Positions 24,347-30,300 of a stretch of 64,000 nt of DNA are shown one piece after another. A program made the position numbers. The stretch spans positions 128,001 through 192,000 of the forward strand of contig JAWSUI010000001.1 in NCBI GenBank assembly GCA_033551855.1. Direction: 5' to 3'. Each line of letters starts with the position of its first letter. Within the stretch, counting starts at the first letter, position 1. Origin of the DNA: Deferrisomatales bacterium. GTDB lineage: Bacteria; Desulfobacterota; Deferrisomatia; Deferrisomatales; JACRMM01.

Positions 24347-27300
24347 ACACGGCCTGCTTGGAGAGGTCATCGTAGATGATCAGCGCATGCTTTCCGTTGT
24401 CGCGGAAGTACTCGCCCATAGTGCACCCGGAGAAGGGGGCGATGTACTGGAGGGGCGCCGGCTCGGAGGCCGTCGCGGCCACGACGATGGTGTAGTCCAT
24501 TGCGCCGTATTCCTTGAGCTTTGCCACCACCTGGGCCACTGTGGAGCGCTTCTGCCCGATGGCGACGTAGATGCAGGTCACGTCGCCGCCCTTTTGGTTG
24601 ATGATCGTGTCGATGGCCACCGCGGTCTTGCCGGTCTGGCGGTCGCCGATGATGAGCTCCCGCTGTCCGCGCCCGATGGGGACCATGGAGTCGATGGCCT
24701 TGAGGCCGGTCTGGAGGGGCTCCTTCACCGACTGGCGCTGGACGATGCCCGGGGCTTTGATGTCGATGATCCGGGTCTCGCTGCTCTCGACCGGACCCAG
24801 GCCGTCTACGGGCTGGCCGAGCGGGTCCACCACCCGGCCGAGGAGCGCATCGCCCACGGGCACCGAGACGATGCTTCCGGTGCGCTTGACGAGGTCGCCT
24901 TCCTTGATGTGGACGTCCTCTCCCAGGAGGGCTGCGCCCACGTTGTCCTCTTCGAGGTTGAGGGCCATGCCCATGACACCCCCGGTGAACTCGAGGAGCT
25001 CTCCGGCCATGCACTTCTCGAGGCCATGCACCCGGGCGATGCCGTCACCCACGTTCAGGACCACGCCGGTCTCGGCGACGTCGAGCTTGACCTCGAAGTT
25101 CTGGATCTTGGACTTGATGATCTGACTGATCTCCTCGGCGCGAATCTGCATGGTGGTCTCACCCCTTGATCAGAGTTTCTCTCATGCGTTCGAGTTGGGT
25201 GCGCAGGCTGCCGTCGAAGACGAGGTTGCCCACGCGGGCCACCACCCCGCCCAGGAGGGACGGGTCGACGTGGAGCTCGAGCTCCACGTCCTTGCTCAAC
25301 GCCTTGGCAAGCGCTTGGCGCAAGGCCAACACCTGGTGGTCGTGCAGCGGCATCGGCGTGGCGGCTTGTCCGCGCACGCGGCCATCGGCCTCATCGCGCA
25401 TGGCGGAGAAGGCGCGGAGCACGTCACCGAGCTGAGGGAGCTGACGCGCCCCCAGGAGAACCCGGAGGAAGTTGGCGGCCAGCCGATCGAAGGACGCGGA
25501 CGCCAGGACGGCCTCGAGGACCTCGGCCTTGGCCGGGCGGGGCAGGATCGGGCTGAGGAGCGCCGTGCGGAGGTCCTCCTGGGAAGACAGGGCCTCCTGC
25601 ACGCTCGCCAGTTGGTCGGCCACCTCGGCCGTCTTGCCCGCCTCCTGGGCCAGCTCGAAGAGCGCCTTGGCGTAGCGCTGGGCGATTCGCGACCGGATCA
25701 ATGGACCCTCCCGATGTTCTGGATGGTGAGCTCCACCGCCTTCTTCTGGTCTTCCGCCGTGTAGGCCTTGGCCAGGAGCTGCTCCGCCAACTGCACGGAG
25801 AGGGTGGCAACCTCGGTCCGGAGCTCGTCGGTCGCCCGCTTGAGCTCGTGGGCGGCAGCCGACTCCACCTGCCGTCGGATGGACTCGGCGGCCTTCTCGG
25901 CGTCGGCCACGAGGCGGCCGCGCTGGCGCTCCCCCTCGGCCTGGAAGTCTGCGTGAATGGTCCGAATCTCTGCCTGCAGGTCCGCGACGCGGGCCTTGTA
26001 CTCCTGGTAGCGGGCCTCGGCGGCATCCCGCGCCTGGAGGGCTTCCTCCAGCTCCTTCTTGATCGAGTCGCGACGCTGGGCCAGGGCCTGGGTTATGGGC
26101 TTGCGCAGGAAGTAGTACAGCAGGCCCAGGAGGATGCCGAAGTTGACGAACTTCATCGTCAGGTCGTACAGGGGTGGGCGGCCGGTTCCTTCGGCAGCGG
26201 CCCACAGGACGGCAGGGGCGAGGAGCGCCCCGAGGGTCAGGAGCAGTGTCAAGGCGCGACGGCCCATCAGACGGCCCTCCCGAGGATGCGTTGGGCGATG
26301 GATTCGGCGACCTGCCCGGCTTGGGCTCGGAGGGACCGCCGCGCCTCCTCTGCCTCGCCGCGCAAGCGGGCTCGGACCTGGGCCACGGCCTTGTCCGCCT
26401 CAGCGGTGGCCGCGGCCAGCAGACGGTCCCTCTCGGTCTCGCCCTGGCGGACGAGCTGGGTGCGGGACCGGTCGGCATCGGCCTTGGCAGCGTGAATGCG
26501 CTTCTGGTAATCGTCCCAGATGGCCTGGGCTTCGCTCTCGAGCTGTGCCGCCTTCGTCCGGCGCCCCTCGGTTCGCTCCCTCCGTTCCTCGAGGACCCGC
26601 AGCATGGGCCGGAAGAGGATGCGGTTCAGGAGGTACATGAGGAGCAGGAAGTTGACGAGCTGGACGACCAGGGTGGCATTGATGTTGATCACGGACCGAT
26701 CCTCCGTAACCCGGGGGCAGAGCGGCCGCGATCATACACGAACGCCTTGGGTGAATCAAACGGGATTCGGTGCTGCCGAGACGATTTTCCCGTGTCAGAC
26801 CACGAAGATCAGGAGCAGGGCAATCACGAGGGAGTAGATCCCCGTGGATTCGGACACGGCTTGCCCTACGAGCATCGTGCGGGTGAGCAGGTTGGCGTGC
26901 TCGGGGGCTCGGGCGATCCCTTCGCAGGCCTTGCCGGCCGCGAAGCCTTCGCCGATACCGGGGCCTATGGCGCCGAAGCCCATGGCGATGCCTGCGCCCA
27001 ACAGGGCGGCGGCGCGGATGACGTCGGGTCCGCTGATCTCTGGGGTCATGGGATACCTCCGGCAGGAAGCAAGATGTTCAAACGACGTATAGAAGTAGAA
27101 GGGCGACGAGAAGCCCGTAGACGGCGGTGGACTGGCTGACGGCCTGGCCAACGAGCATGGTGCGCACCAGGACTGGCGAGAGGTCCGGGCGACGGCCGAT
27201 GGCACGGCAGGCGGCGGCGGCGGCCGAACCGGAACCGATCCCGGGGCCCGTGGCGGCGAGGCCGGCCGAGATCCCGGCACCGAGCAGGGCTGCAACCGCC

Positions 27301-30300
27301 GCCAGGCTGCCGGCGCCCGCATCTCCCGGGTGGGCGAAGACGAGCAGAAAAGCGACGAGCAGTCCGAAGATCGACGGCGTCTGGGCCACGGCCTGTCCCA
27401 TCAGCATAGCACGCAGCAGGGAGGCGTAGCCCGCCGGGCGGCGGGCTATGGCGTGGCAGGCGGCGGCGGCGGTCATCCCGGAGCCGAGGCCGGGCCCAAC
27501 GGCCGAGACGCCGGCCGAGATGGCTGCCGCCGCCAGGGCGGAAGCGGCGCTCGAGAGGGAGCCTGCCGCTTCGAGAGGGACGGCGAAGAGCAAGAGAAAG
27601 GCCATGACGAGGGCAAAGATGGCCGGGGTCTGGGCCACGGCTTGCCCCACGAGCATGGCGGTGGTGACGCGGCCCGCGGCCTGGGGGTGGCGGGCGATGC
27701 CCTTGCAGGCCGCAGCGCCGGCGAGGCCGGCCCCCAGGCCCGGGCCCAGTGCCCCGACGCCCATGCACAGGCCGGCGGCCCCCAGGGCGGCGGCTTGGAG
27801 GAGGCTGGGGACCGGCCGGGCGGTGAACAGGAGCAGCACCGCCACGACGAGGGCGAAGATGCTGGCGGACTCCGCCACGGCCTGGCCCACCAGCATGGTG
27901 CGCTGCACCCTGTGGGCGACGGCCGGCTGCCGCGCGATGGCCGCTGCCGCCGCTTCGGCGGTGCGGCCTTCGCCGATCGCGGCGCCGATGGCCCCCAGAC
28001 CGATGCACAGGCCGGCACCCAACACCGCCGCCGCCTGGGTCCACGCAGCAGGGTCCACGCTCACTCCTGGAGGGCCACGGAAATGTATGTGAGGGTGAGC
28101 ATCGCGAAGACGAAGGCCTGCACGGTGCCCACGAAGAGGCCAAAGAACGCGCTGAGCAGGGGCGGGAAGATGAGGTGGTGGACGAGGTGGCTCACGACGA
28201 GGATGATGATCGAGCCCCCCATCACGTTCCCGTAGAGGCGAAAAGACATGGAGACGACCTTCGCCGCTTCACCAATCACGTTGAGAGGGAACATGAAGAA
28301 GAACGGCTGAAAGTACTCTTTGAGGTAGGCGCGCCAGCCCTTGGCCTTTACCGCCGCCGCTTGAGCTGTCAGGAAGGCGATTAGAGCCAGGATCAAGGTG
28401 GTGTTGAGGTCCTTTGTGGGTTCTTGCAGGAACGGGATCATCCCCAGCCAGTTGGAAATCAGGATGAAGATGAACAGGGTCAGGACCAACGGGTAGTAAC
28501 GGGGACCCCGTTTGCCGAGGGTTTCCCGGACCAGGTCCCGGAAGCCCCCGACCACGACTTCGGCCAAACTCTGGAGGGCCCCGGGCACCAGGGTGGGGCG
28601 GCGCGAGACCGCCATCCCGAGGGCGACGAGCACGGCCATGACGACCCAGGACATCAGGAGGGTGGTCGCGTTCAAGACGACGTCGCGACCGGCGAAGGGA
28701 AGAACCCAGTGGGGGATGTGGGTGATGGCTTCCATGGCCGGACCCTCGGAGGGAGGCTCAATCGCCCCCGCAGGGGCCCAGAAGGCTGCCCGCGAGGAGA
28801 ACGGCGGGCCCCGCGAAGAGGCCGAGTGCGGCGGACCCGAGGGAAACCCCGGGGAGGGCGTAAGCGGCTCCCAGGGCGCCGGCCCGCAGGCCGGTTCGCA
28901 GGAGCGACCCCAATCGGGCGCGCCGGCCGGCCAGGCGCGGGGGCGCCGTGACGTGGCGGGCGATCTGCGTTCCGAGCAGATGCACAGCCGCTGCGCTCGC
29001 GAGGCTCCCGAGCAAGAAGCCCTTGGCCTCCGGCGATCCACCGAGCAAGCCCAGCAGAGCGGCACCGCCCAGTCCGAGGAGCCCCGCCCCGGCAGCGGCT
29101 CCGAGACGAAACCGGCGGAAGACATCGACGGTGGAAGTCACCGTTGCCTCCTCTCGGCCCGGCGCCCCGTCTCGGTGACGATCCGGTAGACAGCCCAGAA
29201 GCCGGAAAGGGCCCCCAGGGGAATGAAGAGGGCTTTCCAGAGCCCCCGGTGCCCGGTCCACTGGTCGAGGTAGTACCCCAAGGCAAAGCCGATGCCCACC
29301 GCGGCGACCATCGTCAGGCCCAAATGCGTGAGGAGGCCGAGGTGCTCCATGAGGTCCTTCATCTCCTTGGGATTGAAGTTCCTCTTGCGTGTCGGCTGGT
29401 TAGGTACCATTGGGTCCTCGGGGTGTCAAGGCAGAGGGCGGTCCGTGGATCCCCCGCCTGCTCGGCAAGCGGGGTCCGGGAGCCCCTACGTTTCGCCCCG
29501 CAATCCGCAGCGGTTCGACCAGGTGTCCTCGCATGCCACTGTGCGCCGGGCTTCAACCGTTTCCGCGGATTCGCCGGCCGGGCGGCCGCGGGTGGGGGGG
29601 CCCGGTAGGCCTCCGGAAGCACTGGATTTCTCTGGAGATTCTCAGGTCGACGCAGCGGAGGGGGATGTGGCCCCACAGCGGGCAGCACGCGCCAGACCGC
29701 CGTCCGGAGCGGGCGGAGGGCTCTCCTGCTTGGGAGAGGCACCGGGGGGCTCACTCAGCGGCCGGATGCCTCGAGGAGGGACAGGAGGCGATCCAAGTCG
29801 TCCAGACTGCGGTAGTCGATGCGGATGCTGCCGGCCCCCTTCTTCTTGGCCGGCTGCACGGACACCCGGGTGCCCAGTCGGCGGCCGAGGCGGTCCTCGA
29901 GCGCTCGTACGTTGGGGTCCTTCGGCGGTGCGGGGGCAGGTCCCGCCGCAGGCCTTCGCGCGAGGGCCTCCGCCTCCCGCACGGACAGACCGCGGCGGAG
30001 GACCTGGCGGAGCAACTCGAGTCGGGCCGCGTCTCCGGTGACGGTGAGAAGGGCGCGGGCGTGGCCGGCGGAGAGGGTGCCGTCGCGCAGGGCCTGGAGC
30101 GCCTCCTCCGGCAGCCCCAGCAGCCGCAAGGCGTTTGCAACGGCGGCCCGGGACTTCCCGATTCGGGCGGCGAGGGCCTCCTGGGAGAGCCGGGCTCGGT
30201 CGAGAAGCAGTCGGTAAGCCTGGGCCTCCTCTACAGGATTGAGGTCCTCGCGCTGGAGGTTCTCCACCAAGGCCATTTCAAGGACTTCGTCTTCGTCGGC

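What a model noticed while it worked through the whole genome (the two positions that open the first line are those of the whole stretch)
26795..28058. Four-hairpin fused F-type ATP synthase c subunit with a single ion-binding glutamate
In the complete F1Fo operon on C1 (atpI-Z-B-E*-E-F-F-H-A-G-D-C, g00148..g00137), gene g00145 (326 aa) is a covalent fusion of four c-subunit hairpins (8 TM helices). Only hairpin 1 keeps the ion-carrying Glu of helix 2; hairpins 2-4 have Gln (pattern E-Q-Q-Q). The gene sits directly beside a normal one-hairpin c subunit (g00144, 84 aa) that carries a two-carboxylate Na+-type motif (E in helix 1; E-S-T..Y in helix 2). The rotor ring is therefore predicted to be a hybrid or low-stoichiometry ring with far fewer ion sites than hairpins. 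This goes well beyond the known F/V hybrid rotor of Acetobacterium woodii (two-hairpin c1).
Evidence so far: pfam.tsv shows four ATP-synt_C domains in g00145 (13-76, 94-156, 177-239, 259-322; call 24). The hairpin alignment shows AES / AQT / AQT / SQS at the carboxylate position. Of the 120 best homologues of 178-569 aa, all have 4, 5 or 6 hairpins: 97 keep Glu only in hairpin 1 (EQQQ 5, EQQQQ 66, EQQQQQ 26), 22 in the first and last hairpin, and 1 shows another pattern. Sources name them only 'ATP synthase F0 subunit C'. AlphaFold2 on 7 four-hairpin homologues gives mean pLDDT 91.3 and pTM 0.89, with eight long helices in four hairpins. Paper searches found only the A. woodii two-hairpin c1 as an F-type precedent. 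A 2026 preprint on rotary ATPase evolution (passages read, call 27) names only A. wo [...]
(Added by a program. Inside this text positions count along the whole contig: contig position 128,001 is position 1 of the stretch shown here. "Call 12" and the like, gene names such as g00115 and contig names such as C1 are that model's own, and its searches are not shown. The text may have been shortened before it was handed on; [...] marks where a part breaks off. The agent that wrote the report below was given it as the finding of a first reader that could run no searches.)

Follow-up and report, generated by a model that had tools for sequence, protein, structure and literature searches.

The report
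Four-hairpin sodium rotor insert, one site
This bacterium carries an optional second gene set for the membrane motor of its ATP synthase, in which one rotor protein is four normal rotor units fused together with only one sodium site left; it probably forms an ion-free arc in the rotor ring that lowers the ions moved per ATP and may turn the enzyme into a one-way sodium pump.

Summary
Confirmed. Window 27078-28058(-) encodes four fused F-type c hairpins (E-Q-Q-Q) beside a normal Na+-motif c. The gene is conserved (dN/dS 0.12-0.16) and belongs to a 3-6-hairpin family. This scan found that family before on other DNA; ten paper searches found no description.

Added here:
(1) Hairpin 1 keeps E30/E63 and hairpin 4 keeps S310/T311/Y314, the two halves of the inter-subunit Na+ site, as in Acetobacterium woodii c1. 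Tyr in one hairpin tracks Glu in the next at 243 of 243 and 495 of 502 junctions.
(2) It abuts atpB with a weak ribosome site while normal c has a strong one, suggesting about one copy per ring.
(3) The operon is composite: an optional Na+ Fo cassette sits upstream of the native b'-b-F1 promoter, and every cassette genome checked also has an ordinary Fo.

Corrections: 16 of 74 four-hairpin genes keep extra Glu. One copy leaves about 8 of 11 sites, not 'far fewer'; the oddity is the contiguous gap.

Best reading: a hybrid-ring insert lowering Na+/ATP to about 2.7, probably pump-biased (inferred). No expression or ring data.

The parts
27078..28058 (-). Four-hairpin F-type c subunit (326 aa, GTG start 2 nt after the atpB stop), pattern E-Q-Q-Q
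27825..28052 (-). Hairpin 1 (residues 3-78): keeps E30 and E63, has lost the Thr and Tyr that would serve hairpin 2 (A65, F68)
   Evidence: first hairpin E,E,F in 80 of 80
27585..27803 (-). Hairpin 2 (residues 86-158): blind, Q143-T-P..F
27336..27557 (-). Hairpin 3 (residues 168-241): blind, Q226-T-P..F; probably the extra copy relative to three-hairpin relatives
27087..27305 (-). Hairpin 4 (residues 252-324): Q309, but keeps S310, T311, Y314, which complete the site of the next subunit
   Evidence: last hairpin S,T,Y in 80 of 80 and 120 of 120; model interface
27056..27060 (-). Strong Shine-Dalgarno site (GGAGG) of the single-hairpin c gene
   Evidence: duplex energy -10.9 against -6.9 kcal/mol for the fused gene
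26795..27049 (-). Normal single-hairpin c subunit (84 aa) with two-carboxylate Na+ motif E34, E67-S68-T69..Y72
28061..28735 (-). Subunit a of the cassette (224 aa) with the stator arginine (R166)
   Evidence: own clade, apart from N-type and ordinary a
28758..29141 (-). AtpI-like membrane protein (PF03899 at 20.8 bits, under the 25.1 cut-off)
29138..29362 (-). AtpZ/AtpQ-like small protein (PF09527), first gene of the cassette
26731..26759 (-). Sigma-70-like promoter element TTGATT-17-TATGAT, 38 nt before b'; marks the start of the native b'-b-F1 unit
   Evidence: at 38-42 nt in 14 of 17 loci (the window's own included), two of them from genomes without the cassette
25698..26692 (-). b' (26267-26692) and b (25698-26267), the only non-N-type b pair found in the genome
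20784..25701 (-). F1 genes delta, alpha, gamma, beta, epsilon; the only F-type F1 of the genome besides the N-ATPase on C13
29755..30612 (-). parB, upstream border; in relatives G004 and G009 parB is followed directly by b'

Best explanation
The protein is a pre-formed four-hairpin arc that is built, about once per enzyme, into a ring of normal Na+-binding c subunits. SHOWN from sequence: its two outer faces keep exactly the half-sites needed to finish a Na+ site with a neighbour, and its three inner junctions have lost both halves; it is co-encoded with a normal c and an intact subunit a in an optional Fo cassette that has no F1 of its own. INFERRED: the ring (11 hairpins if like the solved Na+ rings) carries about 8 ions per turn, about 2.7 Na+/ATP instead of 3.7, with one ion-free arc of about 130 degrees between working sites. 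The cassette and the ordinary Fo are alternative motors for one F1. ATP hydrolysis can drive the rotor through the blank arc, whereas an ion gradient gives no torque there. I therefore expect the enzyme to work mainly as an ATP-driven Na+ pump that resists running backwards, charging the Na+ gradient while the ordinary Fo makes ATP. My odds: about 0.75 that it is a ring insert; given that, about 0.6 pump-biased. The confidence figure is for a rotating hybrid ring with lowered Na+/ATP; the direction is the weaker step.
For: Site geometry: E32 and E65 come from one subunit, S66 and V63 from the adjacent one, with Y70 and T67 in the network (PMC3692424, passages). First hairpin E,E,F in 80 of 80 and last hairpin S,T,Y in 80 of 80; Tyr in hairpin i and Glu in hairpin i+1 go together at 243 of 243 inner junctions (18 both, 225 neither) and at 495 of 502 in the 120 best protein hits. 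A. woodii c1 (4BEM chain J) is the best sequence hit (E 4e-27) and best fold hit and shows the same edges; it sits 1:9 in a real ring (PMC8904574, PMC9171764, passages). A single c follows the fused gene in 79 of 80 loci; the other is cut by the contig end. Start within 10 nt of the atpB stop in 71 of 80; Shine-Dalgarno energy median -4.2 (subunit a -4.55) against -10.8 for single c, which is stronger in 79 of 81. Stator-Arg motif in 78 of 78 a subunits. Complex prediction, fused protein plus two c: score 0.70, best of 3 controls 0.00; the mark was reached by 116 of 157 solved complexes and 2 of 215 mismatched pairs (counts hold only roughly for this job); runs agree in at least 97% of contacts, partner pLDDT at least 86. 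The two c copies dock on hairpins 1 and 4 with the predicted half-sites in the interface. A like complex (4BEM) is solved, so the pass may reflect likeness only. Second Fo and a single F-type F1: this genome, 5 of 5 other cassette genomes, and the order-wide search. Na+ energetics in the genome: one RnfD/NqrB-family gene and two Na+-pumping decarboxylase beta genes. Toy ratchet model: three blanks cut synthesis about 100- to 1400-fold at 180 mV and 35 kJ/mol, one blank about 1.5-fold, and pumping at 80 mV is not slowed.
Against: No expression, proteomic or ring-stoichiometry data. Ring size is assumed. In Bacillus PS3 one E56Q in a fused c10 abolished ATP synthesis (PMC8809890, passages); my toy model does not reproduce that, and a three-blank ring might not couple at all. 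The edge pattern fits a homo-ring of fused subunits equally well. A related four-hairpin clade named as Babeliae/Dependentiae has no single c nearby in 80 of 80 loci, many of them short. The Tyr-Glu link weakens among distant relatives: 33 of 151 junctions have Glu without an upstream Tyr. Related genomes are not independent samples. Shine-Dalgarno energy is a rough proxy for copy number; my start choice took the best-scoring start, and b also scores strongly (-9.5). The genome already has an N-ATPase whose c has a full Na+ motif, so a second Na+ pump would be partly redundant. A. woodii's hybrid enzyme synthesises ATP from 90 mV.
Confidence: 0.55

Rival explanations
1. The same hybrid ring, but working as a thrifty ATP synthase: fewer Na+ per ATP raises ATP yield when the Na+ gradient is high or the phosphorylation potential is low.
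For: This is the published reading for A. woodii and C. aceticum c1 (PMC7911925, passages). A. woodii and E. callanderi enzymes synthesise ATP from about 90 mV, and the phosphorylation potential in A. woodii is only 30-38 kJ/mol (PMC9171764, passages). With 8 sites and 35 kJ/mol, equilibrium is at 136 mV, which is reachable. Earlier scan notes also prefer this reading (unchecked).
Against: Fewer ions per ATP raises the needed driving force (Eq. 1 in PMC9171764). In the toy model a contiguous gap costs orders of magnitude in synthesis rate, and five- and six-hairpin forms, which are common (111 of the 120 best hits are E-first five- or six-hairpin proteins), would nearly stop. All checked genomes keep an ordinary Fo.
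Confidence: 0.2
2. The fused arc is an assembly template or a brake rather than a stoichiometry device: it nucleates the ring, fixes its size or register against gamma/epsilon, or jams rotation when present.
For: Probably low copy number. The A. woodii hybrid ring needs its own AtpI to assemble (PMC8904574, passages). Arc length varies from 3 to 6 among relatives without an obvious energetic rule. One E-to-Q blocks synthesis in PS3 c10.
Against: A pure scaffold would not need to lose its ion sites. The loss is paired residue by residue across each junction, and the last hairpin holds a complete site in 15 of 74 four-hairpin proteins. Blind hairpins keep a polar Gln (74 of 74 in hairpin 2), as expected if they still pass the stator Arg (inference).
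Confidence: 0.14
3. The fused protein forms its own ring (three copies, 12 hairpins, 3 sites, 1 Na+/ATP), and the single c forms a separate ordinary ring.
For: Hairpin 4 (S,T,Y) could complete the site of hairpin 1 (E,E) of another copy. Related Babeliae-type four-hairpin genes have no single c nearby in 80 of 80 loci. All-Glu proteins of 7-15 hairpins exist.
Against: One ion per ATP implies equilibrium at 363-518 mV. Hairpin number changes from 3 to 4 inside one order and reaches 5 and 6 elsewhere. Single c is co-encoded in 79 of 80 loci and has the strong ribosome site. The Babeliae-type proteins keep two or three acids, so their case is different. I did not model the homo-trimer.
Confidence: 0.08
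4. A decaying duplication or assembly artefact without function.
For: Four genomes of the order show no cassette. The blind hairpins evolve about three times faster than single c.
Against: dN/dS 0.12-0.16 in each hairpin; hairpins only 49-59% identical to each other; 2067 proteins at E <= 1e-10 among 8000 scored; position-specific invariants.
Confidence: 0.02

Closest known systems
Acetobacterium woodii (and Clostridium aceticum) subunit c1 of the Na+ F1Fo F/V-hybrid ring, PDB 4BEM chain J, ring c1:c2/3 = 1:9
   Same: Fused F-type hairpins encoded just before a normal Na+-type c. First hairpin keeps Glu and has Phe for Tyr; last hairpin has Gln but keeps the Thr/Tyr donors (alignment). Best sequence and fold match.
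   Different: Two hairpins and one blank junction there; four hairpins and three adjacent blanks here (3-6 hairpins in the family). Glu rather than Gln in helix 1. There it lies in the described atp operon of the organism; here it lies in an optional Fo cassette next to an ordinary Fo. Whether the two fusions share an origin was not tested.
Fusobacterium nucleatum c11 ring, two-carboxylate Na+ motif (PDB 3ZK1; PMC3692424)
   Same: The single c has E34, V65, E67, S68, T69, Y72, equal to E32, V63, E65, S66, T67, Y70.
   Different: A homo-ring of single hairpins; no fused or blind subunit.
Duplicated ectopic Fo (a-c-b'-b) of Desulfococcus oleovorans noted by Koumandou and Kossida 2014 (PMC4154653)
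   Same: A second Fo set without F1 in a Desulfobacterales genome; its a and c are reported to group away from the native ones (section 9). This is probably the same cassette (inference; I did not fetch that genome).
   Different: The passages read mention no multi-hairpin c, ion specificity or function. Its Dataset S1 and Table S1 were not read.
Multi-hairpin c/K subunits of A/V-type ATPases (two-hairpin one-site K of Enterococcus hirae, PDB 2BL2; 13-hairpin Methanopyrus kandleri c)
   Same: Covalent hairpin fusion with loss of sites; fold hits at E 7e-4 and weaker; described in the 2026 preprint (passages).
   Different: Different enzyme class. Here the context is F-type and all V-type NCBIfam models score under their cut-offs. 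In the two-hairpin one-site K, blanks alternate with sites rather than forming one long arc.
N-ATPase (atpDCQRBEFAG)
   Same: Na+-motif c with Glu in both helices; an accessory enzyme beside a normal F1Fo.
   Different: Single c and a score under the N-type cut-offs (68.2 of 130.85; 137.8 of 302.1); delta is present; a falls outside the N-type clade. The genome's true N-ATPase is on C13.

Membership tests
F-type ATP synthase c subunit (PF00137) | Helical hairpin with Gly-rich inner helix and R-x-P loop | tested here: met
   Four stretches, 185.8 bits against cut-off 24; four hairpins in the model
A. woodii-type F/V hybrid rotor | A fused multi-hairpin c gene and a single-hairpin c gene side by side among F-type genes | tested here: met
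   Window; 79 of 80 loci
A. woodii-type F/V hybrid rotor | First hairpin keeps the carboxylate; last hairpin has Gln but keeps the Ser/Thr and Tyr donors | tested here: met
A. woodii-type F/V hybrid rotor | Fused subunit has two hairpins (four helices, 'V-type') with one blank junction | tested here: not met
   Four hairpins, three blanks. It is built like c1 but is not a c1.
A. woodii-type F/V hybrid rotor | Both subunit types in one ring at fixed stoichiometry | not testable with these tools
   Only indirect: translation signals and a predicted complex that may pass by likeness to 4BEM
A. woodii-type F/V hybrid rotor | Na+-coupled ATP synthesis and hydrolysis | not testable with these tools
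   Motif only
Two-carboxylate Na+ c subunit (F. nucleatum type), single c | E32, V63, E65, S66, T67, Y70 | tested here: met
   E34, V65, E67, S68, T69, Y72; invariant in 80 of 80 single c
N-ATPase | c and a over TIGR03322 / TIGR03306 cut-offs | tested here: not met
   Single c 68.2 of 130.85; a 137.8 of 302.1. The fused protein passes TIGR03322 only as the sum of four stretches.
N-ATPase | Operon begins with beta-epsilon and lacks delta | tested here: not met
   Order b'-b-delta-alpha-gamma-beta-epsilon
V/A-type K (c) subunit | Score over V-type K models; A/V-type operon | tested here: not met
   Best PRK06271 100.8 of 211; F-type neighbours

The most novel reading that the evidence does not exclude
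A swappable Na+ Fo whose ring holds one long ion-free arc acts as a mechanical check valve. On the cell's single F1 it pumps Na+ at the expense of ATP but stalls instead of reversing, and lineages tune the valve by adding or removing blind hairpins (3 to 6) or by keeping single inner sites.
Probability: 0.3. Interest if true: 0.82.

Novelty: new variant of a known kind. Interest (0 to 1): 0.6.

Why it matters
F-type rings are taught as symmetric, and one blocked site stops ATP synthesis in the PS3 enzyme. The only solved exception among my PDB hits has a single blank. A natural series with two to five blanks, mostly adjacent, would directly test how far a rotary motor can turn without an ion, how torque is shared among c subunits, and whether an uneven ring can make the enzyme directional. 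It also changes energy budgets for Desulfobacterales and relatives, which would hold two motors for one F1. Cultured carriers exist (Desulfatibacillum alkenivorans DSM 16219 and Desulfosarcina variabilis Montpellier, both E-Q-Q-E), so it can be tested now. The family has already been reported several times in this scan.

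Tried and rejected
Expression: no RNA holder was listed.

Literature: ten full-text searches gave no description of an F-type c with more than two hairpins. Brandt and Mueller 2015 and Matthies et al. 2014 are not held; I saw only their titles in a reference list. From recall, the review lists about twelve species with one single and one double c, and it may include these genes. PMC3543383 (passages) had nothing on fused c. PMC11887813: passages and its one held supplement had nothing; I saw no proteome tables for it. PMC5109826: passages and the supplement table list only an ordinary Fo (AtpE4, 93 aa) and F1. A DOI meant for a Desulfonema paper returned an unrelated article. bioRxiv supplements are closed, so the 2026 preprint's tables could hold such genes.

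Analyses: IQ-TREE timed out, so trees are FastTree on 70 columns (hairpins) and 218 columns (subunit a), with modest support. No Rfam family in 20000-32000. No dsrA over the cut-off, so this organism shows no sign of sulfate reduction although most homologues are in Desulfobacterales. A metagenome scan with P0044 alone found nothing. Whether Babeliae-type genomes hold another c gene could not be checked. The atlas gave only c-subunit clusters. No other note from this genome bore on it.

Rejected: N-ATPase, V-type K, pseudogene or mis-assembly.

Full report
OBSERVATION. The minus strand of window 27078-28058 is one 326-aa frame with four ATP-synt_C stretches. The carboxylate position reads E63, Q143, Q226, Q309, and the helix-1 acid (E30) survives only in hairpin 1. 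The next gene (26795-27049) is a single c with E34 and E67-S68-T69..Y72, the two-carboxylate Na+ motif of F. nucleatum (PMC3692424, passages). AlphaFold2 on 78 sequences gives four hairpins at pLDDT 95.7, pTM 0.93. The best solved match by sequence (E 4e-27) and by fold (E 4.6e-7) is A. woodii c1, 4BEM chain J. Full-length E-Q-Q-Q relatives at 75-81% identity exist on other contigs. Over 17 non-overlapping pairs drawn from 73 loci, dN/dS is 0.13, 0.16, 0.12 and 0.15 for hairpins 1-4 and 0.04 for single c. The gene is real and under selection.

THE FAMILY. Among 80 complete fused proteins (79 from loci plus the window; one cut gene dropped) the patterns are EQQQ 58, EQQE 13, EQQQQ 3, EQEE 2, EQQ 2, EQQQQQ 1, EQEQ 1. 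In the genome's own order, nine genomes with a whole gene have three hairpins (EQQ) and three (G000, G013, G015) have four. In a hairpin tree, first hairpins form one clade (0.97) and most middle hairpins another (0.95). The window's hairpins 2 and 4 group with hairpins 2 and 3 of the three-hairpin relatives, so hairpin 3 is probably a later internal addition; support is modest on 70 columns and hairpin 3 sits on a long branch.

SITE ANATOMY. The Na+ site lies between neighbours: E32 and E65 from one, S66 and V63 from the adjacent one, with Y70 and T67 in the network. The family follows this exactly. The first hairpin is E,E,F in 80 of 80 and the last is S,T,Y in 80 of 80. At inner junctions, Tyr in hairpin i and Glu in hairpin i+1 occur together at 243 of 243 (18 both, 225 neither); the reverse direction and the same-hairpin pairing show no such match. 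In the 120 protein hits the link holds at 495 of 502 junctions; 7 have Glu without Tyr, and the last hairpin is S,T,Y in 120 of 120. It weakens in 73 distant representatives (33 of 151 junctions with Glu and no Tyr, 2 with Tyr and no Glu), and kin are not independent. A. woodii c1 shows the same two edges in the alignment. So this protein is built like c1 with two further fully blind hairpins in the middle. A complex prediction of the fused protein with two single c scored 0.70 against a best control of 0.00 (3 controls). The mark was reached by 116 of 157 solved complexes and 2 of 215 mismatched pairs, counts that hold only roughly for this job; runs agree in at least 97% of contacts and partner pLDDT is at least 86. 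One c docks on hairpin 1 (interface includes E30, E63 and c S68, T69, Y72), the other on hairpin 4 (S310, T311, Y314 and c E34, E67). A like ring is solved, so the pass may show likeness only. Neither the edges nor this model exclude a homo-ring, which I did not fold.

COPY NUMBER. A single c follows in 79 of 80 loci. The fused gene starts within 10 nt of the atpB stop in 71 of 80. Its Shine-Dalgarno energy (median -4.2 kcal/mol) is like that of subunit a (-4.55), against -10.8 for single c, which is stronger in 79 of 81 pairs. I infer about one copy per enzyme, as for the 1:9 ring of A. woodii (PMC8904574 and PMC9171764, passages). This is a rough proxy: b also scores -9.5.

CONTEXT. The genome holds three a/c sets, but only one F-type F1 plus an N-ATPase on C13. 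The C9 set is Z-I-a-c with no b found by tblastn; its c lacks the Thr ligand, which by the motif rule of the 2026 preprint (passages) is H+-type or borderline. In the order, 18 of 18 genomes searched have an a gene outside the cassette; I read the adjacent c in 7 of them and all are of that type. Thirteen also have the cassette a, and G004, G008, G009 and G017 show no cassette. In G004 and G009 parB is followed directly by b'. A promoter-like element 38-42 nt before b' is found in 14 of 17 loci, including those two. In the 80 GTDB loci the cassette is usually Z-I-a-cN-c-b'-b; only 4 show F1 genes behind it, though some loci are cut short. Five of five such genomes checked have a second a and one F-type gamma; the c beside the second a was read in 4 and is the ordinary type. 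The cassette's a keeps the stator-Arg motif in 78 of 78 and forms its own clade (0.92), apart from N-type and ordinary a. So this is an optional second motor for a shared F1. Koumandou and Kossida saw a duplicated Fo in Desulfococcus oleovorans, probably this cassette, with no mention of a fused c (PMC4154653, section 9 and passages). The genome has an RnfD/NqrB-family gene and two decarboxylase beta genes, and no dsrA over the cut-off.

MECHANISM. With one insert in an 11-hairpin ring (size assumed from the solved Na+ rings), there are 8 sites, 2.67 Na+/ATP, a 131-degree step across the gap, and equilibrium at 136-194 mV for 35-50 kJ/mol. A homo-trimer would give 1 Na+/ATP and 363-518 mV. Lower stoichiometry raises the force needed for synthesis and the gradient that hydrolysis can build. 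In a one-dimensional toy ratchet (rigid coupling, only ratios meaningful), at 35 kJ/mol and 180 mV one blank slows synthesis about 1.5-fold and three blanks 100- to 1400-fold, depending on channel spacing; pumping at 80 mV is not slowed. That fits A. woodii still making ATP but not the complete loss of synthesis caused by one E56Q in PS3 c10 (PMC8809890, passages), so the model is incomplete. I commit to a rotating hybrid ring with lowered Na+/ATP (0.55), probably pump-biased. Rivals: thrifty synthase (0.2), scaffold or brake (0.14), homo-ring (0.08), decay (0.02). Shown: sequence anatomy, conservation, context. Inferred: expression, ring membership, copy number, ring size, ion and direction.

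KNOWN VERSUS NEW. It is built like A. woodii and C. aceticum c1 (PMC7911925, passages) but fails the two-hairpin definition. It is neither N-type nor V-type. Ten paper searches found no description of an F-type c with more than two hairpins, and the passages read in the 2026 preprint name only A. woodii for F-type. The two papers most likely to bear on it were not held, and preprint supplements are closed. This scan has noted the same family on other genomes many times; one such note is marked 'part of it fell', without the reason shown. Verdict: new variant of a known kind, interest 0.6.

Noticed in passing
L142-L221 (metagenome loci); proteins P0171-P0289: A large related clade of four-hairpin c proteins (E-Q-E-D/E; 848 hits at E <= 1e-20; three of 120 listed are named Babeliales/Dependentiae) lies right after atpB in most loci, with no single c and no F1 gene detected in 80 of 80 loci (up to 7 kb flanks, many shorter). 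Their a is sister to the cassette's a (0.86, midpoint root). Possible homo-ring of fused subunits.
   Followed up: partly
proteins P0012, P0076, P0095, P0102, P0054: All-Glu c proteins of 15, 12, 10, 8 and 7 hairpins; the P0012 cluster is named from Promethearchaeota, Hodarchaeota and Thorarchaeota. Possible single-chain rings, one longer than the 13-hairpin M. kandleri protein.
   Followed up: no
window 26731-26759 (-): Conserved sigma-70-like element in front of b', inside the apparent operon; it would let b'-b-F1 be transcribed without the Na+ cassette.
   Followed up: yes
L004:10982-11616: This locus has two single-hairpin c genes after the fused gene, like the c2/c3 pair of A. woodii.
   Followed up: no
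L081 (G000:C9:304-2116) and L082 (G000:C13): The ordinary Z-I-a-c cluster lies after a gene that looks like glutamate-1-semialdehyde aminotransferase (by eye). In the N-ATPase locus gamma lies about 6 kb beyond alpha.
   Followed up: no
window 17225-19314 (+): Two genes that look like nifU (301 aa) and a nifS-type cysteine desulfurase lie close to the end of the atp genes (by eye; not scanned against families).
   Followed up: no
L025, L006, L028: Four-hairpin proteins with an inner site in hairpin 3 (EQEQ, EQEE); in each the Tyr donor is present in hairpin 2.
   Followed up: partly
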